Assembly: GCA_021820465.1 (NCBI GenBank)
Contig: JAKADP010000005.1
Coordinates: 9,661-73,660 of the forward strand
Source: Bacillota bacterium
Lineage (GTDB): Bacteria > Bacillota > Sulfobacillia > Sulfobacillales > JAIMBI01
Length of the DNA: 64,000 nucleotides
Direction of reading: 5' to 3'
Of this stretch, positions 19,834 to 64,000 are shown in pieces; the first letter of the stretch is position 1; each line of letters starts with the position of its first letter. The notes beneath the pieces are model-generated. The model made no database searches. It was given only the letters and a program-made list of their open reading frames with translations, and had not been told where the DNA came from. Position numbers and translations under genes: made by a program.

Positions 19834-20193
19834 ATGATTCGCCTATACCACTACCGCGGGTGAAGCACGTGCGTGAGGGCGAAAGCGTGGCTTTCGCAGG
19901 CGTTGGCCGACCAGAAGCTGTCGGCCGCTTTGCTGGAGGAGCGGGATCTCATCCGCGACCCCCTGTCGGCCCACGAGGTGCACGACCTGGTGCGCCGGGC
20001 CGGCGGCATCGAGGCGGTGCTGGCGACCCGAAGCCCGGCGTACCGGGCGCGGGTGAGCGCCGTCGCCGATGAGGCCGGCTGGCTCTCAGCCATGGCCGAA
20101 GAGCCGCGGCTCATCCGCCGACCCATTCTGGAGACGGATCGGGGCATGGCGGTGGGCTTCTCCGAGGCCAATTGGCGGCGGCTGCTGGACTGA
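19834..20193 (+). CDS. ArsC/Spx-family thioredoxin-fold protein with in-frame TGA (19861-19863) at the first Cys of CxxC: candidate selenoprotein
   Basis: TAGGAGG (19821-19827), 6 nt, then ATG at 19834. The translation is MIRLYHYRG-[TGA]-STCVRAKAWLSQALADQ... and is open to 20193. It aligns with the Spx/ArsC N-terminus (M..LY....C..CRKA..WL). The track shows only the fragment starting at GTG 19873. Confidence 0.7.
19879..19897 (+). promoter_or_regulatory. SECIS-like hairpin
   Basis: GCGAAAGC-GUG-GCUUUCGC is an 8-bp perfect stem that starts 15 nt after the TGA. Confidence 0.55.
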
Positions 20194-32448: not shown

Positions 32449-32694
32449 TTAACGGCCGAGCCGCCGCTCCATCTCCTGGCGATTGAACCCGATGATCAGG
32501 TCCTCCCGCCCGTCCGGCCACTGCAGCACGGTGGTGGGCGTGGACCGGGATCCCAGCGCCATCAGCTGGTCAATGTACTCCGGATTGTCGGGCAGATTCA
32601 GCTCGGTGAACACATAACCCGCTTGAGAAAGCCACGCTTTCTCCGTTTCGCAGGCACCTCACCCCGGTTGGGTGAATACCCGGATGACTGGCAT
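32449..32694 (-). CDS. glutaredoxin/NrdH-like protein with in-frame TGA (complement of 32659-32661) at the first Cys of CxxC: candidate selenoprotein
   Basis: My own translation is MPVIRVFTQPG-[TGA]-GACETEKAWLSQAGYVFTELNLPDNPEYIDQLMALGSRSTPTTVLQWPDGREDLIIGFNRQEMERRLGR. This is the glutaredoxin fold pattern (beta1, CxxC, a cis-Pro region TP, then GF). Both halves are below the track size cut-off. Confidence 0.7.
32625..32643 (-). promoter_or_regulatory. SECIS-like hairpin
   Basis: GAGAAAGC-GUG-GCUUUCUC is an 8-bp perfect stem that starts 15 nt after the TGA. The geometry is the same as at 19879-19897. Confidence 0.55.
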
Positions 32695-34128: not shown

Positions 34129-35094
34129 ATGGCGAACAAGATCGGCAAGGGATTGGCGGCCGTCATGGCTGGCGGAATGGTTGCGGCGCTGGCCGCGTGT
34201 GGCACCAGTGCCCAGGCCAGTTCGCCGCCCGTGGCGACGGTGGGTCACGACGTCATCAGCAAGCAAGAGTGGCTGTCGACGGTGAAGAGTCTCGGCATGT
34301 TAAACGGCAGCCCGCTGTCGACCAACAAGGCAGCAGAGTACAGCCAGGTAAAGCAACTGATGGTCTGGTCGGCGGTGGAGCAGTATGTGCTGGCGCACCA
34401 CTGGACCACCAATGCCAAGGCGAGCCGGCAGGCGGCGACCGCACTGAGTCAGATTGAAAAGCAGGCGGGCAGCAAAACCGCGCTCGTAAAGCAGCTCAAA
34501 ACCCAGGGGCTGACCCTGGCGAATTTCTCCAGCTTTCTGACCAACCAAGAAATTTTGCAGGCGGCGTACGCCCGGGTGACGAAGAGCGTGAAGAAGCCCA
34601 CCACGGCCGCCATCCAGGCGTACTACAACCAGAACAAGAGCAGTTTTGTCCAGCCGGCCACGGATACGGTCCAGGCCATCCTGGTGAAGACCCGGGCCCA
34701 GGCCACGGCGCTGGAGGCCGAGCTGAAGGCGGGCAAGGCCACGTTTGCCGCGCTGGCCAAGGCGGACTCCCTCGACAAGGCCTCGGCTGCCAGTGGAGGC
34801 CAGATGGGTCCGATTCCCACCTCGGTGGCCACGGCGGCTTCGTCGGGCATTCCGGCGTCCTTCGTCACAGAGATGGACACCCTCAAGGCGGGCCAGTACG
34901 GCATCGCCGCGACGACGGCCGGGTACTACCTGATGCAGGTGACGGCGGTGACGCCGCAGAGCACCCAGTCGTTTAATGCCGTCAAGAGCCAGATTGCGAG
35001 CCAGTTGCTGTCCACCGCCCAAAGCAACACCTTTCAGAGCTTTGGCCAGCAGCAGCTCAAGAAGATGGCACACAGCATCAAGGTGAAGGCGTAG
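34129..35094 (+). CDS. prsA: parvulin-type peptidyl-prolyl isomerase lipoprotein (PrsA-like)
   Basis: ATG at 34129 follows GGGGAGGT. The lipobox is VAALAACG. The parvulin core is VQAILV...FAALAKADSLD..SAASGGQMG. Confidence 0.8.
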   Translation: MANKIGKGLAAVMAGGMVAALAACGTSAQASSPPVATVGHDVISKQEWLSTVKSLGMLNGSPLSTNKAAEYSQVKQLMVWSAVEQYVLAHHWTTNAKASRQAATALSQIEKQAGSKTALVKQLKTQGLTLANFSSFLTNQEILQAAYARVTKSVKKPTTAAIQAYYNQNKSSFVQPATDTVQAILVKTRAQATALEAELKAGKATFAALAKADSLDKASAASGGQMGPIPTSVATAASSGIPASFVTEMDTLKAGQYGIAATTAGYYLMQVTAVTPQSTQSFNAVKSQIASQLLSTAQSNTFQSFGQQQLKKMAHSIKVKA

Positions 35095-37037: not shown

Positions 37038-37978
37038 CGCGCGAAGGCCCGGTGGGGGTGTTGGTGATGGCGCACGGGGTGGCCGCGGGCGTGGAGGACA
37101 TTCCCCGCTACTATGCCCACATTCGCGGCGACCGGCCCCGAAACCCCGCCGTGGAGCAGGAGCTGGTGGACCGGTATCGGGCCATCGGCGGACATTCGCC
37201 CCTCATCGAGATCACGGCGGCCGTGGCGCGCGGCCTAGAGGAGGAGCTGGCGCGGCGCCACGGTCCGGCCCGGTATCGCGTGGCCTTCGGATTTCGCCAT
37301 GCCGCACCGTCGATCGAGGACGCCCTCTTAGAGCTCCAGACGCGTGGAGCCGTGCGCTACATCGGCCTGGTGCAGGCTCCGCACTATTCCGCGATGAGCG
37401 TGGGGGCGTATGAGCGGGCGGCCAGTGCCGGCCCGCTGCCGGGCCACACCATTGGGGCGTGGCACGTGGAGCCCCGCCTGATGCACCTGCTGGCGGACCG
37501 GGTGCGGGAGGCGTCGGCGTCGCTGCCGGTGCCACTGGAGGACACGGCGGTGGCGTTCACCGCGCACAGCCTGCCGGAGCGGATCCTGAGCACGGGCGAC
37601 CCATATCCGGGGCAGCTGGCCGAGACGGCTGCCGCAGTCGCCCGCATCCTGGGGCTCACCACCTACGACGTGGGCTGGCAGAGTGCGGGACGCACGCCGG
37701 AGCCCTGGATGGGCCCCGATGTGCTGGAGCTTTTGCGCTCGTGGGCCGCCGCCGGGCGGCGGGCGGGGCTGATCGCCCCCGTGGGGTTTGTATCGGACCA
37801 CTTGGAGGTGCTGTACGATCTCGACGTGGAGGCGCGGGCTTTGGCGGAATCGCTGGGGCTCGCCTTCGCGCGCACGCGGTCGCTGAACGCGGACCCGGAG
37901 TTCATCCGGGTGCTGGCCGACGTGATCGACCGGGACGAGCGGGATCGGGAGCCGGGCGGGGGTGAGGGCCGTGCGTGA
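37034..37978 (+). CDS. hemH: ferrochelatase (coproporphyrin ferrochelatase type)
   Basis: Motifs LVMAHG, YY.HIR and GFVSDHLEVLYDLD. There is an ATGA overlap with hemE. Confidence 0.9.
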   Translation: MTREGPVGVLVMAHGVAAGVEDIPRYYAHIRGDRPRNPAVEQELVDRYRAIGGHSPLIEITAAVARGLEEELARRHGPARYRVAFGFRHAAPSIEDALLELQTRGAVRYIGLVQAPHYSAMSVGAYERAASAGPLPGHTIGAWHVEPRLMHLLADRVREASASLPVPLEDTAVAFTAHSLPERILSTGDPYPGQLAETAAAVARILGLTTYDVGWQSAGRTPEPWMGPDVLELLRSWAAAGRRAGLIAPVGFVSDHLEVLYDLDVEARALAESLGLAFARTRSLNADPEFIRVLADVIDRDERDREPGGGEGRA

Positions 37979-39365
37979 GTTGGCCGTGGTGGGGGCGGGG
38001 ATGGCTGGTCTGGCGGCGGCCCACCGATTGGAGCAGCTGGTGCCTGATGCCCGCGTGACCGTGTACGAGGCGGCGGATCGGGTGGGGGGCGCCGTGCGAT
38101 CCGAGGCGGTGCCCCCGGGTTCGGTGGTGATGGAGGCGGGGCCGGATTCCCTCTTGGCCCGCAAGCCCGCCGGAGTGGCGCTGGCGGAGGCGGTGGGCTT
38201 GGCCGGCGAGCTGGTGCCCTCCCACCCCGGGGCCCGCGGGGCCCTCTTGTATCTCGACGGCCAGCTCTGGCCACTGCCCCCGGGCGTGGTGGCGGGGGTG
38301 CCTCTTCAGCCTGAGCGCCTGGAGGGGTCGCCCCTGCTGACGGCCGAGGGCCGGGCAGCCCTCCTGGCGGATTTGGACGCGCCGCCGGAGTCTGTGACGG
38401 CAGACGTCAGTCTGGGCGGGTTTCTGGCACGGCACCTCGGGGATGAGTGGGTCGACCGCGTCGCGTCCGCCTTGCTGTCGGGAATCTACGCAGGCCACAT
38501 TCGCGAGCTGTCCCTGCTGGCCACCTACCCCGAGCTGGCGGCTGCCGCCCGCCACGGAAGCCTCATGCGCGGCTTGGCCGCCGAGCGCCGGGCCCACCCG
38601 CCGCGGCCGGGTCCGGTATTTGTGACGCTGGTGGGCGGGCTGGAGACGCTGCCGCGCCGGGTGGCTGCGCGGCTCCGGACTCCGGTGCACACCGGAGTGG
38701 CCATCCGGAGCGTGACGGCCGAAGGCGCCCGCTATCGGCTCACCGGCGACCGCGAGGACCACGTCGTGGACGGCGTCGTGGTGGCGACGCCCGCTTGGGT
38801 GGCGGCGGGCCAGCTTCAGCGGCTGGCGCCGGCGGCGGCCGCGCGGCTGCGCGAGGTGCCCTACGCGAATCTGGCGGTGGTGACGCTGCGATATGCCTCA
38901 GGCGTTGTGCCGCCCCCCGGCATGACGGGGGTGCTGGTGCCCGCGGGCAGCGGGGTGGCGCTGACCGCCATCACGTTTGTGGGTCAAAAGTGGGCCCACC
39001 GCACGGACCCGGTGGACGTGCCGGTGCGCGCGTTTTACGGGCGTGCGGCCACGAGTCGGGGAGAGGACAACGTGCTCACGTGGTCTGACGACCGGTTTCG
39101 CCGCGAGGTGGCCGCTGACCTGCGCCAGGTGCTGGGATGGACGGCCGACCCCTACGCAGTGCAGGTGCATCGGCATCCGGCGGCGATGCCCCAGTATCTG
39201 GTGGGCCATCGGGATCGGGTGGCCGAGGTGGAAGCCGAGGTGGCACGCTGGCCGGGACTGGCCCTGGCGGGCGCCGCTCTGCATGGGGTGGGCATCCCTG
39301 ATGTCATCCGCAGCGGCGAGGAAGCGGCCGAGCGCGTGGCTCGCTCGGGGGAGTTGCGGCCCTAA
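37971..39365 (+). CDS. hemY: coproporphyrinogen/protoporphyrinogen oxidase (HemY/CgoX)
   Basis: FAD fold LAVVGAGMAGLAAAHRL, in the hemEHY order. GTG at 37971 overlaps the hemH end. The track start is at 37962. Confidence 0.85.
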   Translation: MRELAVVGAGMAGLAAAHRLEQLVPDARVTVYEAADRVGGAVRSEAVPPGSVVMEAGPDSLLARKPAGVALAEAVGLAGELVPSHPGARGALLYLDGQLWPLPPGVVAGVPLQPERLEGSPLLTAEGRAALLADLDAPPESVTADVSLGGFLARHLGDEWVDRVASALLSGIYAGHIRELSLLATYPELAAAARHGSLMRGLAAERRAHPPRPGPVFVTLVGGLETLPRRVAARLRTPVHTGVAIRSVTAEGARYRLTGDREDHVVDGVVVATPAWVAAGQLQRLAPAAAARLREVPYANLAVVTLRYASGVVPPPGMTGVLVPAGSGVALTAITFVGQKWAHRTDPVDVPVRAFYGRAATSRGEDNVLTWSDDRFRREVAADLRQVLGWTADPYAVQVHRHPAAMPQYLVGHRDRVAEVEAEVARWPGLALAGAALHGVGIPDVIRSGEEAAERVARSGELRP

Positions 39366-39374
39366 GCGAGGGGC

Positions 39375-43010: not shown

Positions 43011-43484
43011 ATGGAGCCCCGCATCATCCCCGAGTTTCAAACCGAAGACATTCACGGCACGCCGTTTCGGGCCTCGGATTTGGTGGCGCGCGCGCCCGTG
43101 CTGGTGGTGATGCTGCGCGGGCTGTTCTGACCGTACTGCCGGCGGCAGCTCGTGCAGCTGCGCGACCAGTACGCGGCCTTGCGGGCGGCGGGCATCCAGG
43201 TGGTGGCTATCGGGCCGGACCGCCCGCAGGCGCTCCGCGCCCACTTTGAGAAGGAGCGCCTGCCCTTCGAGGCGATTGCGGACCCCTCCCAGCAGGTGCT
43301 GAAGGCGCTGGGCCAGCAGTATCGGTGGTACACGGTGGGGCTCCTGCCCGCCATGCTGGCCATTGCCCCGTCGGGGGCGGTCGTGTGGCAGCACTATGCG
43401 AAGAGTCCTCAGGATCTCCCCAGCCTGACCGAGGCCGCGGCGGCCCTGGGCCGGCGGCTGGACCATCAGGGCCAGGACGCGTAG
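43011..43484 (+). CDS. AhpC/TSA (peroxiredoxin-like) thioredoxin-fold protein with in-frame TGA (43128-43130) at the first Cys of CxxC: candidate selenoprotein
   Basis: GGGGAGG, 7 nt, then ATG at 43011. The translation is MEPRIIPEFQTEDIHGTPFRASDLVARAPVLVVMLRGLF-[TGA]-PYCRRQLVQLRDQYAALRAAGIQVVAIGPD... This matches the family pattern vvLvFyRG.WCPyC..qL. The track lists only 43152..43484. Confidence 0.7.
43145..43161 (+). promoter_or_regulatory. SECIS-like hairpin
   Basis: GCAGCU-CGUGC-AGCUGC is a 6-bp stem that starts 14 nt after the TGA, with GUG in the loop. Confidence 0.4.
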
Positions 43485-50258: not shown

Positions 50259-50415
50259 AATTGGAACGGCTCCCTTCTAATCGTTCGCGCCGGACGGGCC
50301 GGTTCCTGCCCTGAGTCGGCAAATTGATCGGCCGTCGTCGGTGGGGCGTGGCGTCTTGCGATGGCCGTGGGGCCATCGCAGCCGGGATCGTGGGTGCCTC
50401 GGAGAGGGGGAGCGC

Positions 50416-51303
50416 ATGCCGGATCGCAAGACGCTGGCGTACGTCGGCGCCACGCTGCTGTTGTGGTCGTCGGCGTTTGCCGGCATTCGCAGTGCGCTGG
50501 GGGGGCTGTCGCCGGGGCACGTGCTCCTGCTGCGGTTTGGCATCGCGTCGTTAGTTCTCCTGGGATGGACCCGGGCCGCCCGGCTGCCCTGGCCGCCTCG
50601 GCGGCTCGTCGCCCGCCTGGCTCTGATTGGCGTCGTGGGCATTTCCCTCTATCAAGGCTGCCTCACCTTTGGGGAGCAGATGGTCCCGGCGGGGACCGCC
50701 AGCTTCATCGTGGCAGCCGCCCCGGTGTTCACGGCGCTGCTGGCGGCGCTGTGGCTGGCCGAGCGGCTCTCCCGCCGGACCCTACTCGGGCTGGCGGTCA
50801 GCATGCTGGGCGTGGCGGTCATCAGCTTCGGATCGGGATCGGCAGCGTTTCATCAGCGTGCGCTCCTCATCGTGGCGGCGGCCATCGCGACTGCCGTCTT
50901 CTTTGTGGCGCAGAAGCCACTGTTGGGCCAATATCCGGCCCTGGCGGTGACGGCCTGGGTGACCTGGGCGGGGACGCTGCCGCTCTTGGTGTTTGCCCCA
51001 GGCCTGGCGGCCAACGTGGCGCACGCCCCGCCCGCCGCGGTCTGGTCGGTGGTGTATTTGGGCGTGCTGCCTGCGGCGGTCGCGTATGTGCTGTGGGCGC
51101 ACGCCCTCCAGCGGGCCCCGGCTGGGCAGGTGTCCACCTGGCTCTACCTGAACCCCTTTCTCGCGACAGCCATTGGGTGGGTGTGGCTGGGCGAGGTGCC
51201 AGCCTGGACAGCGCTGGCAGGCGGCGTGGTCGCCGTCGCGGGCGTGGTGCTGGTGAACTGGCGGCCTGTGCGTGCGACACCGCCCTCTGCCGCCCCGTCT
51301 TGA
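50416..51303 (+). CDS. EamA/DMT family transporter
   Basis: Ten TM-like segments, with LLWSSAF at the N-terminus. The start is the internal ATG at 50416, after GGGGGAG. Confidence 0.85.
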   Translation: MPDRKTLAYVGATLLLWSSAFAGIRSALGGLSPGHVLLLRFGIASLVLLGWTRAARLPWPPRRLVARLALIGVVGISLYQGCLTFGEQMVPAGTASFIVAAAPVFTALLAALWLAERLSRRTLLGLAVSMLGVAVISFGSGSAAFHQRALLIVAAAIATAVFFVAQKPLLGQYPALAVTAWVTWAGTLPLLVFAPGLAANVAHAPPAAVWSVVYLGVLPAAVAYVLWAHALQRAPAGQVSTWLYLNPFLATAIGWVWLGEVPAWTALAGGVVAVAGVVLVNWRPVRATPPSAAPS

Positions 51304-51345
51304 CGCCCTGGGGGCCCTCTGGTACAGCTACGGCCATACCATGCC

Positions 51346-51801
51346 GTGGGGAGGCGCGCGGTGGACCGATCGGTGGGGCAGTGGCTCGGGGTGGCGGGTG
51401 CCATTGGCGCGGTGGCGGCGCTCGTCATGGGGAGTTGGGGGGCGGCCCCCCTGGCGGCCTATATCGGCGACGCGCTGCAGCTCGCCCTGCTCGTGGTGGC
51501 GTTTTTGGTGGGGCGGCGTGCCGGGCGCGAGCGGAGGCGGCCCGGCTGGCTCGGAGGACTGGCCGGCGTGGTGGGCGGCTTGGTGGCCAGCCTCGGGGAC
51601 TTTGCGGTTCACTTTCCGGTGTCGCGGTTCCACACCGTCGTGAACGCCGGCCAAACCGTGACGGCGAGTCAGCAGGCGGCCGTGGCCAACAGCGTGGGTG
51701 GCCGCGTGACGGAGCTGGTGGTGCTCACGCTGGTCATGGGGGTGTTCGGCATCATCGCGGGGACCATCGGCGGAGCCACCGGCAAGCCCTCGGCCGTGTA
51801 G
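51346..51801 (+). CDS. hypothetical membrane protein
   Basis: Hydrophobic segments and coding-like third-position bias. I recognise no motif. Confidence 0.5.
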   Translation: MGRRAVDRSVGQWLGVAGAIGAVAALVMGSWGAAPLAAYIGDALQLALLVVAFLVGRRAGRERRRPGWLGGLAGVVGGLVASLGDFAVHFPVSRFHTVVNAGQTVTASQQAAVANSVGGRVTELVVLTLVMGVFGIIAGTIGGATGKPSAV

Positions 51802-58360: not shown

Positions 58361-59089
58361 ATGCAGCGGGAACCGGCGTGGCGATGGCTGGCCGCGGCCG
58401 CAGGGCTTGCGGTGGCGCTGGCGGCTTACGGGATGGGGTCGCGGCTGTCGGCGGCGGCCAGCCGGCCCGCGCCGGTCATCATTCGGGCGCCCATCGCCGA
58501 GCGGGTGCTGGCGCTGACGTTTGACGACGGGCCCACCGCCCGATGGACGCCGAAAATTCTGCGAGTGCTGCGGCAGAGCCACATCCCGGCCACGTTTTTT
58601 GTGATTGGGCGGCAGGCCGAGCGCTATCCGGCGCTCGTAGCCCAGGAAGTTCGGGACGGAATGGAAGTGGGAAGCCACGGGTACAACCACCTGGGGCTCT
58701 TCGGCCGGAGCGCCGCTGTGGTGGCTGCCGAGGTGGAGCAGGCCCAGCAGGCCATCGTGGCGGCCGGCGCGCCGGCGCCCACGCTGTATCGCATGCCGGC
58801 AGGGATTTACGATCAGACGGCGCTGTCGGTGCTGGGCGGGCTCCACTACGTGGTGGTGGGCTGGAGCATCGATCCGAGGGACTGGCGGCACCGCTACACC
58901 GCGGCGGCCATGGCGACGCTGGTGGAAAATCAGGCGGAACCCGGCGCGATCATTATTTTCCACGATGGCCCCACTGGCGGCCCGGCCACCGTGGAGGCCG
59001 TCCAGCAGCTGATTCCCGTGCTCCAGCGCGAAGGGTACCGCTTCCTCACGGTGTCTGCCATGGTGAAGCTGGTCAAGGGCCGCCTATAG
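58361..59089 (+). CDS. polysaccharide deacetylase (NodB family)
   Basis: Motifs TFDDGP, HIPATFF, GSHGYNH and LYRMP. Confidence 0.85.
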   Translation: MQREPAWRWLAAAAGLAVALAAYGMGSRLSAAASRPAPVIIRAPIAERVLALTFDDGPTARWTPKILRVLRQSHIPATFFVIGRQAERYPALVAQEVRDGMEVGSHGYNHLGLFGRSAAVVAAEVEQAQQAIVAAGAPAPTLYRMPAGIYDQTALSVLGGLHYVVVGWSIDPRDWRHRYTAAAMATLVENQAEPGAIIIFHDGPTGGPATVEAVQQLIPVLQREGYRFLTVSAMVKLVKGRL

Positions 59090-60188
59090 CGCCTTGGGGA
59101 TTCAGCGTCCCCGGCATTTGATGGTCGAACGCCAGGACGTCCACCGTGGGAGCAATGGTCCCATAACCCCAATTCAGCAGGGATTCGGCGTCCGCGTACT
59201 CGGTGGCAAACAGCTGCGCATGCAGCAGCACGCCCACCAGCGTCACAGGGTAGCCGTTGACGGTCCGCTGGGCTGCGAACACCAGCGTGCAGGCCGCCTG
59301 GCTCGTCCACCCGGTCTTCAGTCCAATGACCGTGGGGTCGCGCCACAAAATGCCGTTGATGTTAATCACGATCGGGTTATTGGGCAGGCTTGCGGTTTTG
59401 GTGCGCATAATCTGGCGCAGCACCGGGATCTGGAGGTCCAGCTCGGCCAGCCGCAGCAGGTCGCCGGCGCTGGACGAGGACCCAGGAGAGATGCCGTCGG
59501 GGTCGGCGTAGTGCGTGTGGTGCAGGCCGAGCGACTGGGCGGTGCGGTTCATGAGGGCCACAAAGGCCGCCGTGTGGCCCGAGACGGCCTGGGCCAGCGC
59601 CACGGCTGCGTCGTTGGCCGATACCATCAGCATGCCGGTCAGCAGCTGGCGCACCGTGAACCGCTCTCCGGGATACATGCGCATGTCCGAGCCGCCGGTC
59701 GCGGCCGCGGATGGGGAGATGACCACGACTTGGTTCATGGGGAGGCTTTCTGCCACCAGATAGGCCGTCATCAACTTCGTGGTGGACGCGATGGGACCCT
59801 GCTGCGTAATGTTTTTGGCGTAAAGGAGCTGGGGTTGGCCATAGATGGCCAGAACGGCATCGGGCTCGTGCAACGGGAACGGGAGGGACGTCCCCGCGGG
59901 GATCCAGCGAATGGGGCGGGTCGACCGGGCGGCGTGGGCGGCGGCCACGGCTCGGAGCGCGGCCCGTCCCGGGCGGGGCGGGGCGGCGGCCCGCGAGGAG
60001 TGCCACGCGAGGGATCCCAAGATGCCGCCGGCGGCCAGCACAGCCAGGGTTGCAGCGACGCGGTGCCCCAACGAACGGCGGAATGATGTACGGCGTGCCA
60101 CCGGTGTCCCCCCGGACTTGAGATGTGGGGGCCGCCCGCCGCGCTGGTGCGGACGCTTGGGCTCCCCCAGGGGATGGCGTCCGGCCAT
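59073..60188 (-). CDS. D-alanyl-D-alanine carboxypeptidase (S11 penicillin-binding protein)
   Basis: ASTTK is the SxxK motif, SAND is the SxN motif, and KTG appears in LKTGWT. Confidence 0.85.
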   Translation of the reverse strand: MAGRHPLGEPKRPHQRGGRPPHLKSGGTPVARRTSFRRSLGHRVAATLAVLAAGGILGSLAWHSSRAAAPPRPGRAALRAVAAAHAARSTRPIRWIPAGTSLPFPLHEPDAVLAIYGQPQLLYAKNITQQGPIASTTKLMTAYLVAESLPMNQVVVISPSAAATGGSDMRMYPGERFTVRQLLTGMLMVSANDAAVALAQAVSGHTAAFVALMNRTAQSLGLHHTHYADPDGISPGSSSSAGDLLRLAELDLQIPVLRQIMRTKTASLPNNPIVININGILWRDPTVIGLKTGWTSQAACTLVFAAQRTVNGYPVTLVGVLLHAQLFATEYADAESLLNWGYGTIAPTVDVLAFDHQMPGTLNPQGAIGGP

Positions 60189-60227
60189 CCCACGGTGCTG
60201 GACCGATTCTGGACCGATTGTACACAG

Positions 60228-60686
60228 TCAGGGGTCGGTCTGCATGGGCGGGGAGGCGGGGCGCGTCCCCGCGCGCTGTCGCTGATGGGCCACAAAGCGC
60301 TCCCACCAGGCGGGATCTCGGTCCGCCAGATCCAACAGCGCCTCGATGGCGGACAGCGCCTCCCCATCGATGAAGTGCTCGATGCCCTCGACAATGTCGT
60401 GGATGCGGGCGGGATCCCGGAGGCCCAACTGCTGCAGAAACCGCTCCAGCATCTCATGGCGCGCCGCCAGCGACCGCCCGCGCCCCTCGCCCAGGGCGGT
60501 GAGGGTCAGTCCCCGATAGCGCTCATATTTCAACAGGCCGTCTTGGTCCAAGCGGCGCACCATCTTGCTGGCCGACGCGACAGACAGATGGAGGCGGGCC
60601 GCAATGTCGCTCACTCGTGCCGCGCCGCGGTCACGGGTCAAAATCCAAATGGCCTCCAAATAATCCTCGCGGCTGGGGCTGGCCAT
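60228..60686 (-). CDS. mntR: MntR/DtxR-family metal-dependent transcriptional regulator
   Basis: Motifs REDYLEAIW, VSDIAARL.VS..S..KMV.RL...G.L and HE.LE.FL. Confidence 0.85.
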   Translation of the reverse strand: MASPSREDYLEAIWILTRDRGAARVSDIAARLHLSVASASKMVRRLDQDGLLKYERYRGLTLTALGEGRGRSLAARHEMLERFLQQLGLRDPARIHDIVEGIEHFIDGEALSAIEALLDLADRDPAWWERFVAHQRQRAGTRPASPPMQTDP

Positions 60687-60826
60687 CTCATCGCCTCCTC
60701 GCGGCGGGCCGGTTCATTGGTTCCTAGAATATGGGAATATGTGGCGGGCGAACCCTCTGGGCGCACTTTGTTTGCAGGTTCTTCATGTTTGAGCGGCGTC
60801 GGGAGGTTAGAATACGCCCGGGAGGG

Positions 60827-63297: not shown

Positions 63298-63300
63298 GCG

Positions 63301-63349
63301 CCGTGCCCGTCGAGGGAGGGTGGCTCCTCCCTTGATGGGCGGCGCACGG
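63301..63349. terminator. hairpin between convergent sqdB-like and peroxiredoxin genes
   Basis: The outer stem is CCGTGC/GCACGG. The inner stem is AGGGAGG/CCTCCCT with loop GTGGCT. Confidence 0.5.
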
Positions 63350-63350
63350 G

Positions 63351-63812
63351 TCACGGCAGCGCGGCAAGCACCTCCTCGGGCTCCGGCAGTTCCTCCGCGC
63401 CGTACACGTTGACAAACTCGAGGGTGCCATCGGCACCCACCACCAGCACGGCGCGGTCGGCCATGCCATCGTCGCGGAGCACGCCATAACGTTTCAGCAT
63501 CGCCCCGTGGGGCCAAAAGTCACTGGCCAGCGGATAGGTGAGCCCGCCCAGACTTTTCGCCCACGCTTCGTTGCAGGGAACAGAATCGACACTAACGCCC
63601 ACGACCTGGGCGCCCACCGCTCTAAAGCGCGCCTCGGCGCGGCTGAAGGCGGGAATCTCATTGGTTCAGACAGGCGTCCAGGCCAGCGGGTAGCATACCA
63701 GCACGAGCCGGTGCCCCGCATAGTCCGCCAGCCGAATGGCTCGGCCACCCGTGCCGGGCAGGGTGAACGCCGGTGCCCGGCTGCCCACCTTCAAGGTCTT
63801 CGTGTGATTCAT
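63351..63812 (-). CDS. AhpE/PrxU-like peroxiredoxin with in-frame TGA (complement of 63666-63668) at the peroxidatic Cys: candidate selenoprotein
   Basis: AAGGAG, 6 nt, then ATG at 63812. The translation is MNHTKTLKVGSRAPAFTLPGTGGRAIRLADYAGHRLVLVCYPLAWTPV-[TGA]-TNEIPAFSRAEARFRAVGAQVVGVSVDS... It matches the Prx motif YPLAFTPVCT.E. The track lists only 63351..63617. Confidence 0.7.
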
Positions 63813-63967
63813 GCCCATCTCCTTGCGCGTCTACGCGCGTCCCGTCTCTCACTCAGTTGCAGCCGATGTCGAACCCCCGCTCCCTAGCCCCCGCGAGCGC
63901 CCGCCCCTTTGCTAGGATGAGCGGACCTAGGATGGGCCCAACGGGCCCTCCGCATGCAGGAGGCGTG

Positions 63968-64000
63968 ATGGTGCTGGGGGCAGGTGTCGTGCTGGTGGTG
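63968..64000 (+). CDS. 5' end of an unidentified ORF (MVLGAGVVLVV...)
   Basis: AGGAGG, 4 nt, then ATG at 63968. Only 11 codons are visible. Confidence 0.25.
   Translation, partial: MVLGAGVVLVV

What the first reader, a model, noticed from the sequence alone, without database searches (positions are those of the whole stretch)
63351..63812. AhpE/PrxU-like peroxiredoxin with TGA at the peroxidatic Cys
AAGGAG, 6 nt, then ATG at 63812. The translation is ...HRLVLVCYPLAWTPV-[TGA, complement of 63666-63668]-TNEIPAFSRAEARFRAVGAQVVGVSVDS... and runs on into the track ORF 63351..63617. The universal Prx motif P-x-x-x-T-x-x-C places the TGA on the peroxidatic residue. A Sec-containing Prx (PrxU) is an established precedent. 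The downstream structure is less clear than in the other three genes. The best candidate is an imperfect long hairpin whose apical stem CGCGC-CGAG-GCGCG starts 24 nt after the TGA.
Basis: partly seen in the sequence, partly recalled or inferred. Interest (0 to 1): 0.75.

Follow-up and report, generated by a model that had tools for sequence, protein, structure and literature searches.

The report
Selenocysteine-containing AhpE-like peroxiredoxin gene
This is an intact peroxide-detoxifying enzyme gene in which a UGA "stop" codon most likely encodes selenocysteine at the catalytic position; gene callers split it in two, but this kind of selenoprotein is already known.

Summary
A minus-strand gene (63812..63351) with a good RBS encodes a complete 153-aa AhpC/TSA peroxiredoxin, interrupted only by TGA at codon 49 (complement of 63666-63668). 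That codon aligns with the peroxidatic Cys of every Cys homologue and of M. tuberculosis AhpE. The TGA is not a lesion. It is conserved in at least six Bacillota-MAG lineages (60-99 % identical) with mostly synonymous substitutions on both sides, in a Prx-Grx fusion, and in about 75 metagenome contigs only 41-51 % identical. In the window's own GC-rich gene the hairpin is not statistically exceptional, and its CGAG loop is atypical. Three other U-x-x-C redox genes lie in the window, and TGA is a normal stop elsewhere. The Sec machinery genes could not be checked. The best reading is a genuine, unannotated selenoprotein: AhpE-like, not a PrxU orthologue. Sec-peroxiredoxins (PxxxTxxU) are an established family, so this is a new member of a known kind.

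The parts
63819..63824 (-). Shine-Dalgarno sequence AAGGAG, 6 nt upstream of the start codon
   Evidence: Read directly from the sequence. Gene callers on orthologous contigs use the same MNHTK/MDHTK start.
63351..63812 (-). Complete coding sequence of a 153-aa AhpE-like peroxiredoxin (ATG 63812; stop TGA 63353-63351), with Sec at codon 49
   Evidence: Translation. Pfam AhpC-TSA E 1e-32 over the full domain. Best solved-structure matches are MtAhpE. Orthologues have the same frame and length.
63666..63668 (-). In-frame TGA (codon 49), the proposed selenocysteine codon at the peroxidatic position of P42-x-x-x-T46-x-x-U49
   Evidence: Aligns with Cys in all full-length homologues and with Cys45 of MtAhpE. 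TGA is conserved in 93 of 98 related loci that my pattern matched.
63617..63652 (-). Candidate bacterial SECIS: a two-tier hairpin at nt 17-52 counted from the U of UGA. Lower stem CCGC/GCGG (63652-63649 with 63620-63617); upper stem nt 25-32 with 37-44
   Evidence: MFE fold. 93 % of cells paired against 28-47 % for slid controls, with both-side changes at pairs 30-39 and 31-38. Codons 49-66 are nearly invariant among four lineages, p = 6e-5.
63628..63641 (-).
   Evidence: Meets the four published bSECIS constraints (against PMC13188914). Replaced by CCGAUC-ACUG-GAUCGG at the same position in L011.
63573..63575 (-). TGC codon for Cys80 (motif SVDSVPCNEAW), a candidate resolving cysteine
   Evidence: Conserved in all six Bacillota lineages and in the Prx-Grx fusion, which were found by protein search. 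Aligns with a Thr in the 1-Cys MtAhpE. The resolving role is an inference.

Best explanation
The gene encodes a selenocysteine-containing peroxiredoxin of the AhpE-like subfamily.

Shown: the gene is one intact 153-codon reading frame. Its only interruption is UGA at the peroxidatic position of the Prx motif P-x-x-x-T-x-x-(C/U). That UGA and the frame on both sides are conserved under purifying selection across many lineages.

Inferred from the established bacterial Sec pathway: during translation, a SelB-GTP-Sec-tRNA(Sec) complex is tethered by the mRNA hairpin that starts about 14-17 nt after the UGA (apical loop 29 nt downstream). It inserts Sec at codon 49 instead of terminating. The gene's real stop, also UGA, has no such hairpin and terminates normally.

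Inferred chemistry: the selenolate of Sec49 is activated by Thr46 and Arg120 and attacks a hydroperoxide to give a selenenic acid. This is then resolved either by the conserved Cys80, forming a selenenylsulfide, or directly by an external thiol or Grx-like reductant. The second route has two parallels: MtAhpE is reduced by mycothiol/mycoredoxin, and some homologues carry a fused glutaredoxin domain.
For: 1. Complete AhpC-TSA domain across the TGA. The catalytic Pro, Thr, Cys and Arg of MtAhpE align with P42, T46, U49 and R120.
2. All 19 full-length homologues in the alignment have Cys at the TGA column.
3. The closest database relatives are all C-terminal fragments, because gene callers split the gene at the TGA. 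Their contigs show TGA at the same codon in conserved synteny, in several independent assemblies and samples.
4. Substitutions on both sides of the TGA are mostly synonymous and third-position. For window against L005: 21 synonymous to 3 non-synonymous upstream, 29 to 16 downstream.
5. 93 of the 98 related loci that my pattern matched carry TGA at this codon, including about 75 metagenome contigs at 41-51 % identity and a Prx-Grx fusion.
6. RNA evidence. The named hairpin is 93 % paired against 28-47 % for slid controls, with two pairs compensated. Only 4 of 18 codons vary in codons 49-66, against 98 of 136 elsewhere, p = 6e-5. Across 81 Sec-form genes the 42-nt window just after the TGA has a median of -18.3 kcal/mol against a gene mean of -9.7, and the most stable window of the gene starts at offset +12 in 48 of 81. 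Five Cys forms of similar GC give z = +0.7.
7. The hairpin meets the published bSECIS constraints.
8. The organism appears to use Sec elsewhere. Three more genes in the window have TGA at the first position of a U-x-x-C motif (AhpC-TSA, Glutaredoxin, ArsC), each followed by a hairpin.
9. TGA is an ordinary stop codon here: 14 of 30 long ORFs end with it, so there is no genome-wide reassignment.
10. Sec-Prx with the PxxxTxxU motif is an experimentally verified family (PMC13188914; PMC1794560).
Against: - No tRNA-Sec, selA, selB or selD was found in the window or in the flanks of related loci, and the rest of the genome could not be searched.
- No Rfam SECIS model matches, even at E = 10.
- In the window gene itself the hairpin is not exceptional. 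It has z = -0.78 against dinucleotide shuffles. 633 of 2000 synonymous recodings of the same peptide fold as well. 33 of 96 other codon positions in the gene also pass the literal bSECIS constraints.
- The apical loop CGAG lacks the usual G-G/U dinucleotide. The L011 loop ACUG has no G in its first two positions. Most soil-type hairpins fail that rule in my strict scan.
- RNAalifold found no single consensus for the mixed 10-sequence set, because stem registers differ.
- The covariation rests on only six sequences.
- There is no experimental evidence for Se incorporation.
Confidence: 0.88

Rival explanations
1. The TGA is a nonsense mutation, and the locus is a pseudogene or a gene split into two non-functional fragments, as current gene calls imply.
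For: Gene callers annotate a 48-aa and an 88-aa fragment. The Sec machinery has not been demonstrated.
Against: The TGA sits at the same codon in at least six lineages that differ at 12-40 % of residues, and in about 75 distant metagenome homologues. Both fragments stay in frame with mostly synonymous substitutions. There are no further lesions. The stop falls precisely on the one catalytic Cys column.
Confidence: 0.02
2. The UGA is read through or recoded as something other than Sec. This could be Cys or Trp by near-cognate decoding, or a lineage-specific reassignment of UGA, giving a full-length thiol peroxiredoxin without selenium.
For: The Sec machinery was not found in the sequence available. 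The loop of the hairpin is not the canonical G-G/U type.
Against: TGA ends 14 of 30 long ORFs in the window, including this gene itself, so it is not reassigned. In-frame TGAs in the window occur specifically at redox-Cys positions of four thioredoxin-fold genes, which is the signature of Sec. A conserved, position-specific hairpin follows TGA forms but not TGC forms.
Confidence: 0.04
3. The gene is a true selenoprotein, but the functional SECIS is not the exact structure proposed. It could be a different register (C28 bulged, pairs 25-43/26-42/27-41), only the apical stem-loop, or a longer element including the second hairpin at nt 58-72.
For: MFE predictions for the window and L005 use the bulged register. 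The C27-C42 pair is unpaired in 4 of 6 sequences. Related sub-clades place the loop 1-4 nt differently. A second conserved hairpin GCCCA..UGGGC follows in nearly all sequences, although it is also present in some Cys forms.
Against: The five apical pairs 28-41 to 32-37 and the lower stem 17-20/49-52 are paired in all six close sequences, apart from one A-C mismatch at pair 30-39 in L014, and they carry the compensatory changes. The spacing and loop size fit the bSECIS model.
Confidence: 0.2
4. The TGA is a sequencing or assembly error in a normal Cys (TGC/TGT) peroxiredoxin gene.
For: The window comes from a metagenome-assembled genome.
Against: The identical codon is present in 23 contigs carrying P0001 alone, from independent NCBI, ENA and Logan assemblies and samples, and in every related lineage.
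Confidence: 0.005

Closest known systems
Selenoprotein peroxiredoxin family (Prx, PF00578, motif PxxxTxxU), as catalogued in prokaryotic selenoproteome surveys (PMC13188914; PMC1794560)
   Same: AhpC/TSA fold, Sec at the peroxidatic position of PxxxTxxU, Cys-containing homologues, and a hairpin immediately downstream of the UGA. The family is already known to have arisen by repeated Cys-to-Sec conversion and to occur in Firmicutes, including high-GC Symbiobacterium.
   Different: Nothing categorical. This copy, and its clade in uncultured Bacillota MAGs, is unannotated and split by gene callers. I found no paper that specifically describes Sec forms of the AhpE-like subfamily.
PrxU of Eubacterium acidaminophilum (Sohling et al. 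2001; NCBIfam NF040737 peroxi_PrxU)
   Same: A peroxiredoxin with Sec replacing the peroxidatic Cys; a Gram-positive host; the experimentally verified precedent.
   Different: A different subfamily and size. The PrxU model is 233 positions long, and the window protein (153 aa) scores 54 bits against a 270-bit cut-off. It is therefore not an orthologue.
AhpE of Mycobacterium tuberculosis (Rv2238c; PDB 1XXU, 1XVW, 4X0X)
   Same: Best match among solved structures (E 5e-22, 36 % identity over 131 columns). Same length (153 aa). Catalytic Pro/Thr/Cp/Arg align. Shared DFWPHG motif. Some homologues are fused to a Grx-like domain, which parallels the mycoredoxin-dependent reduction of AhpE.
   Different: AhpE has Cys, not Sec, and is a 1-Cys enzyme. 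The window protein has a second, clade-conserved Cys80 where AhpE has Thr. The host is Bacillota rather than Actinomycetota.
Bacterial SECIS consensus (bSECISearch model, Zhang and Gladyshev, as summarised in PMC13188914)
   Same: A stem-loop inside the coding region just 3' of the UGA: 4-nt apical loop, upper stem of at least 5 bp, G at loop position 2, 29 nt spacing, and an MFE well below -7.5 kcal/mol.
   Different: The loop is CGAG rather than the prevalent G-G/U pattern. Relatives have ACUG, GGUG, GUU and CGCUU, so no loop sequence is conserved. The other three Sec candidates in the window have G-U-G loops.

Membership tests
Sec-containing peroxiredoxin (selenoprotein Prx, PF00578, PxxxTxxU) | Complete AhpC/TSA (thioredoxin-fold peroxiredoxin) domain | tested here: met
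   Pfam PF00578 E 9.8e-33, 113 bits against a cut-off of 26, profile positions 1-123 of 124, spanning the TGA.
Sec-containing peroxiredoxin (selenoprotein Prx, PF00578, PxxxTxxU) | In-frame UGA at the peroxidatic position of P-x-x-x-T-x-x-U, aligned with Cys in homologues (Cys/Sec pair) | tested here: met
   P42-L-A-W-T46-P-V-U49. All 19 full-length homologues and MtAhpE Cys45 align with the TGA.
Sec-containing peroxiredoxin (selenoprotein Prx, PF00578, PxxxTxxU) | TGA-containing homologues in other organisms, with conservation on both sides of the TGA | tested here: met
   At least six Bacillota lineages, one Prx-Grx fusion and about 75 metagenome contigs carry TGA at the same codon. Substitutions both upstream and downstream are mostly synonymous.
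Sec-containing peroxiredoxin (selenoprotein Prx, PF00578, PxxxTxxU) | Bacterial SECIS stem-loop immediately downstream of the UGA (3-9 nt loop, 4-16 bp stem, G in the first two loop positions, 16-37 nt spacing, MFE of -7.5 kcal/mol or lower) | tested here: met
   5-bp stem, loop CGAG, spacing 29 nt, -8.1 kcal/mol for the apical stem and -21.7 for the whole hairpin. Caveat: 33 of 96 background positions in this GC-rich gene also pass, so passing is weak evidence by itself.
Sec-containing peroxiredoxin (selenoprotein Prx, PF00578, PxxxTxxU) | Evolutionary support for the hairpin (covariation; an RNA-level constraint on the coding sequence) | tested here: met
   Two pairs have changes on both sides, and 93 % of cells are paired against 28-47 % for slid controls. 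Codons 49-66 are nearly invariant, p = 6e-5. The hairpin is specific to TGA forms family-wide. Negative controls: the recoding test was not significant, and RNAalifold gave no consensus on the mixed set.
Sec-containing peroxiredoxin (selenoprotein Prx, PF00578, PxxxTxxU) | Sec-decoding machinery in the genome (selA, selB, selC/tRNA-Sec, selD) | not testable with these tools
   None in the 64-kb window or in the flanks of related loci. Indirect support comes from three other U-x-x-C genes in the window.
Sec-containing peroxiredoxin (selenoprotein Prx, PF00578, PxxxTxxU) | Selenium actually incorporated at the UGA position | not testable with these tools
   Requires 75Se labelling or mass spectrometry.
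PrxU (NCBIfam NF040737 equivalog) | Score at or above the curated equivalog cut-off (270 bits) | tested here: not met
   54.2 bits; the match covers model positions 32-173 of 233. Not a PrxU orthologue.
AhpE subfamily of peroxiredoxins | Closest to M. tuberculosis AhpE rather than to the Prx1/AhpC, Prx6, PrxQ/BCP, Tpx or Prx5 representatives | tested here: met
   The top seven PDB matches are all MtAhpE (81 bits, E 5e-22), against 66 bits or less for Prx1-type and 57 bits or less for BCP-type. Identity is 36 %, similar to the 35 % of accepted Deinococcus AhpE homologues (PMC8945050).
AhpE subfamily of peroxiredoxins | 1-Cys mechanism (no resolving cysteine) | tested here: inconclusive
   A second Cys (Cys80) is conserved in the clade where MtAhpE has Thr. 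Whether it acts as a resolving residue was not testable. In the metagenome set its conservation is partly an artefact of the search pattern SVDSVPCN.
AhpE subfamily of peroxiredoxins | Formal active-site-profile or phylogenetic assignment (PREX-type classification); A-type dimer | not tested
   No such classifier was available, and no structure was predicted because coordinates cannot be inspected with these tools.

The most novel reading that the evidence does not exclude
The window gene may represent a large clade of Sec-containing AhpE-like peroxiredoxins that is unannotated and not specifically described. The clade includes uncultured aerobic Bacillota, Prx-Grx fusions and at least 75 soil or sediment metagenome contigs, and no curated NCBIfam selenoprotein model covers it. 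In this reading the clade works by a two-residue Sec49/Cys80 selenenylsulfide mechanism, in a subfamily otherwise defined as 1-Cys. Its reductant might be the Sec-containing Grx-like protein encoded 31 kb away.
Probability: 0.25. Interest if true: 0.5.

Novelty: new member of a known kind. Interest (0 to 1): 0.35.

Why it matters
In practice, this gene and its whole clade are mis-annotated in public data as two short fragments, so antioxidant capacity and selenium dependence are under-counted in these Bacillota and in many soil metagenomes. A curated model for this subfamily would fix hundreds of gene calls. Biologically, it adds an AhpE-like branch to the known Sec-peroxiredoxins. Together with three other U-x-x-C genes in the same 64 kb, it also points to a selenoprotein-rich, apparently aerobic, high-GC Bacillota lineage; the aerobic reading rests on cytochrome c oxidase genes that lie next to the locus on the same contig. 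This does not change what is known about Sec decoding or peroxiredoxin chemistry.

Tried and rejected
- **Rfam.** Neither the gathering search nor a permissive search (E up to 10) over 63300-63900 gave a SECIS or any other meaningful hit.
- **ARAGORN.** No tRNA-Sec in the window or in 37 related loci.
- **Motif search for SelB, SelD and SelA in six frames of the window.** Nothing credible.
- **Single-sequence fold against dinucleotide shuffles.** Not significant, z = -0.78.
- **Synonymous recoding of the window's post-TGA peptide.** The native fold is not more stable than the recodings (633 of 2000 fold as well), so the peptide RAEAR in GC-rich codons itself dictates the hairpin. I therefore rejected 'selection on synonymous sites within this one sequence' as evidence, and used cross-lineage invariance instead.
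- **RNAalifold on 10 mixed sequences.** No sensible consensus, because stem registers differ by 1-4 nt.
- **Strict contiguous-stem bSECIS scan.** The window passes, but so does 34 % of the background in this gene, and only 11 of 81 family members pass. I rejected it as a discriminating test.
- **Other in-frame TGA-joined ORF pairs (50281-51801, 59073-60713, 37902-39374, 34245-34622).** These are adjacent genes or antisense frames, not selenoproteins.
- **PrxU orthology.** Rejected.
- **Structure prediction.** Not run, because model coordinates cannot be inspected to measure the Sec49-Cys80 distance.

Full report
**Observation.** On the minus strand, AAGGAG (63824-63819) is followed after 6 nt by ATG at 63812. 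The frame then runs to a TGA stop at 63353-63351, interrupted once by TGA at the complement of 63666-63668, which is codon 49. The read-through product (153 aa) matches the whole Pfam AhpC-TSA domain (E 1e-32, profile positions 1-123 of 124). The local sequence is P42-L-A-W-T46-P-V-[TGA]49, the universal peroxiredoxin motif PxxxTxxC with the TGA on the peroxidatic residue. The mechanical ORF 63351..63617 is simply the tail of this gene.

**Is the TGA a lesion or a codon?** A search of 5.8 billion proteins was decisive in an indirect way. Every close relative (60-99 % identical) is an 84-100 aa fragment covering only the part after the TGA, whereas full-length relatives with Cys are at most 52 % identical. 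I fetched the contigs behind those fragments. The same split appears everywhere: a 47-52 aa AhpC-TSA piece, a stop, and then the fragment. Synteny is conserved (methyltransferase | prx | epimerase | Cys/Met-metabolism enzyme | Fe-dependent repressor).

Translating through the stop gives an uninterrupted protein with TGA at the same codon in six lineages (window/L001-4, L005-7/L017, L018, L008-10, L011-13/L019, L014, and the more distant L015). Substitutions between lineages are mostly synonymous and third-position on both sides of the TGA. For window against L005, there are 21 synonymous to 3 non-synonymous changes upstream, and 29 to 16 downstream. A pseudogene would not behave this way. An assembly error is excluded because the same sequence appears in independent NCBI, ENA and Logan assemblies: 23 contigs for P0001 alone.

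**Breadth.** A scan of representative genomes found three loci, all titled 'MAG: Bacillota bacterium'. The window is 100 % identical over 3,650 nt to contig DAHWKI010000005.1 of GCA_027343685.1. A metagenome scan returned 80 loci only 41-60 % identical to the window protein, and about 75 of them also carry TGA at the peroxidatic codon (FYPLAWTPV-U-T[ASV]QMP[AS]YEADL...). Five carry TGC. A Prx-glutaredoxin fusion (L016) has TGA there as well. One caveat applies. TGA forms could only have been retrieved through the search pattern SVDSVPCN, so the TGA:TGC ratio and the 76/76 conservation of Cys80 in that set are ascertainment-biased. The existence of many distinct Sec forms is not affected by this.

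**The column.** In an alignment of the Sec forms with 19 full-length homologues, every homologue has Cys at the TGA column. The seven best matches among solved structures are all M. tuberculosis AhpE (Rv2238c; E 5e-22), ahead of Prx1/AhpC-type (about 1e-17) and BCP-type chains. Identity to MtAhpE is 36 % over 131 columns. P42, T46, U49 and R120 align with its catalytic Pro, Thr, Cys45 and Arg, and the DFWPHG motif is shared. The NCBIfam PrxU equivalog model scores only 54 bits against a 270-bit cut-off, and no NCBIfam model reaches its cut-off. So the protein is AhpE-like and not a PrxU orthologue.

**The RNA element: what does not distinguish it.** Taken alone, it is unimpressive in this 67-69 % GC context:
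- Against dinucleotide shuffles it has z = -0.78.
- 633 of 2000 synonymous recodings of the same peptide fold as well.
- 33 of 96 other codon positions in the gene also satisfy the literal bSECIS constraints.
- No Rfam model matches.

**The RNA element: comparative evidence.** This is what supports the hairpin.
1. In L011 the apical stem is CCGAUC-ACUG-GAUCGG at exactly the same position. On the six sequences that share the register, the named structure is 93 % paired against 28-47 % for slid controls. Pairs 30-39 (C-G, A-U, U-G) and 31-38 (G-C, U-A) change on both sides.
2. Among four close lineages, 102 of 154 codons vary, but only 4 of the 18 codons 49-66 do (Fisher p = 6e-5). The three longest invariant runs in the gene all lie there, and one of the few changes (CGC to CGU in L018) keeps a G-U pair.
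3. Across 81 non-identical Sec-form genes, the 42-nt window starting 9-18 nt after the TGA has a median of -18.3 kcal/mol against a per-gene mean of -9.7, and the most stable window in the gene starts at offset +12 in 48 of 81. In the five Cys forms of similar GC, the same region is less stable than average (z = +0.7).

The hairpin also meets the published bSECIS constraints: a 3-9 nt loop, a 4-16 bp stem, a G in the first two loop positions, 16-37 nt spacing, and an MFE of -7.5 kcal/mol or lower (PMC13188914). Its loop is not the prevalent G-G/U type, however, and loops differ among relatives (ACUG, GGUG, GUU, CGCUU). RNAalifold found no single consensus over the mixed set, because registers shift by 1-4 nt. 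The review notes that a subset of bacterial SECIS elements do not fit the consensus model.

**Does the organism decode Sec?** The window contains no tRNA and no recognisable selA, selB or selD. The flanks of 37 related loci hold no tRNA-Sec. The rest of the genome could not be searched, so this criterion remains untested. Indirect evidence is good:
- The window holds three more genes with TGA at the first position of a U-x-x-C redox motif. These are an AhpC/TSA-like gene (43011..43484, TGA 43128-43130), a glutaredoxin-like gene (32694..32449, TGA complement of 32659-32661) and an ArsC-family gene (19834..20193, TGA 19861-19863). Each is confirmed by Pfam and followed by a hairpin starting 14-15 nt after the TGA, with a G-U-G-containing apical loop.
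- TGA is otherwise a normal terminator: 14 of 30 long ORFs end with it, including the prx gene itself. That excludes a reassigned code and means a local signal is needed to distinguish codon 49 from the real stop.

**Mechanism.** The following is inferred from the established bacterial Sec pathway and from peroxiredoxin chemistry. SelB carrying Sec-tRNA(Sec) binds the hairpin as the ribosome reaches UGA49 and inserts Sec. The Sec49 selenolate, positioned by Thr46 and Arg120, reduces a hydroperoxide and becomes a selenenic acid. Recycling is less certain:
- Cys80 (TGC at 63575-63573) is conserved in all Bacillota lineages, in the Grx fusion and in many Cys homologues, and it aligns with a Thr in the 1-Cys MtAhpE. 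It could form a selenenylsulfide with Sec49.
- Alternatively, a Grx-like reductant may act directly. MtAhpE is reduced by mycothiol/mycoredoxin-1 (PMC8113037, PMC8945050), and several homologues are fused to a Grx domain. The window's own Sec-Grx-like protein resembles that domain (30 % identity over 53 residues, E 3e-6, redox motifs aligned). This link is speculative.

**Comparison with what is known, and novelty.** 'Peroxiredoxin (Prx), PF00578, TxxU' is listed among the experimentally verified prokaryotic selenoproteins, with the motif PxxxTxxU and the precedent of E. acidaminophilum PrxU (PMC13188914). A 2006 survey already counted 12 Sec-Prx genes and five independent Cys-to-Sec conversions, including one in the high-GC Symbiobacterium thermophilum (PMC1794560). 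Literature searches found no paper that specifically describes Sec forms of the AhpE-like subfamily, and no curated NCBIfam model covers this clade. The finding is therefore a well-supported, currently mis-annotated new member of a known kind, possibly a newly noticed sub-clade.

**Verdict.** Confidence that this is a genuine Sec-encoding gene is about 0.88. Confidence in the exact SECIS structure is lower, at about 0.7. Interest is moderate to low (0.35): the result is useful for annotation and for mapping selenium use in soil and aerobic Bacillota, but it would not surprise a specialist.

Noticed in passing
window 43011-43484 (+), TGA at 43128-43130: AhpC/TSA-like thioredoxin-fold gene with in-frame TGA in the motif ...RGLF-U-PYC... 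(Pfam AhpC-TSA 3e-20 with U written as C). A hairpin GCAGCU-CGUGC-AGCUGC follows 14 nt after the TGA. Probably a 'Prx-like thiol:disulfide oxidoreductase' type selenoprotein.
   Followed up: partly
window 32449-32694 (-), TGA at complement of 32659-32661: Glutaredoxin/NrdH-like gene with MPVIRVFTQPG-U-GAC... (Pfam Glutaredoxin 1e-7). A hairpin GAGAAAGC-GUG-GCUUUCUC follows 15 nt after the TGA. It resembles the Grx domain fused to Cys-form homologues of the Sec-Prx (E 3e-6), so it could be its reductant.
   Followed up: partly
window 19834-20193 (+), TGA at 19861-19863: ArsC/Spx-family gene with MIRLYHYRG-U-STC... (Pfam ArsC 9e-13). Its hairpin GCGAAAGC-GUG-GCUUUCGC is nearly identical in form to that of the Grx-like gene. 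That makes four candidate selenoprotein genes in 64 kb.
   Followed up: partly
L016 1-640 (GCA_002049765.1, MTKZ01135041.1); protein cluster P0047, P0125-P0129: A peroxiredoxin-glutaredoxin fusion (about 245 aa when read through) with TGA at the peroxidatic codon (TPI-U-TEQIP). Close Cys-form fusions (P0002, P0003, P0013, L034, L046) have TGC. JGI names the truncated product 'glutaredoxin'.
   Followed up: partly
L020-L099 (metagenome contigs, many from soil): About 75 distinct contigs encode 155-160 aa AhpE-like peroxiredoxins with TGA at the peroxidatic codon (FYPLAWTPV-U-T[ASV]QMP[AS]YEADL). Each has a strong hairpin starting about 12 nt after the TGA. Most have DFEPKG or DFHPKG in place of DFWPHG. 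Their taxonomic origin was not determined.
   Followed up: partly
L001/L002 1-1643 (same contig as the window, beyond window position 64000): Cytochrome c oxidase subunits I and II lie just beyond the divergent methyltransferase next to the prx gene. This suggests an aerobic lifestyle for this Sec-using Bacillota lineage.
   Followed up: no
window 59073-60713 (-) and 50281-51801 (+): Adjacent genes happen to be in the same frame and are separated only by TGA (a DtxR-type Fe-dependent repressor followed by a D-Ala-D-Ala carboxypeptidase-like protein; an EamA-like permease followed by a membrane protein). These look like ordinary stops, not Sec codons: there is no redox motif at the TGA.
   Followed up: partly
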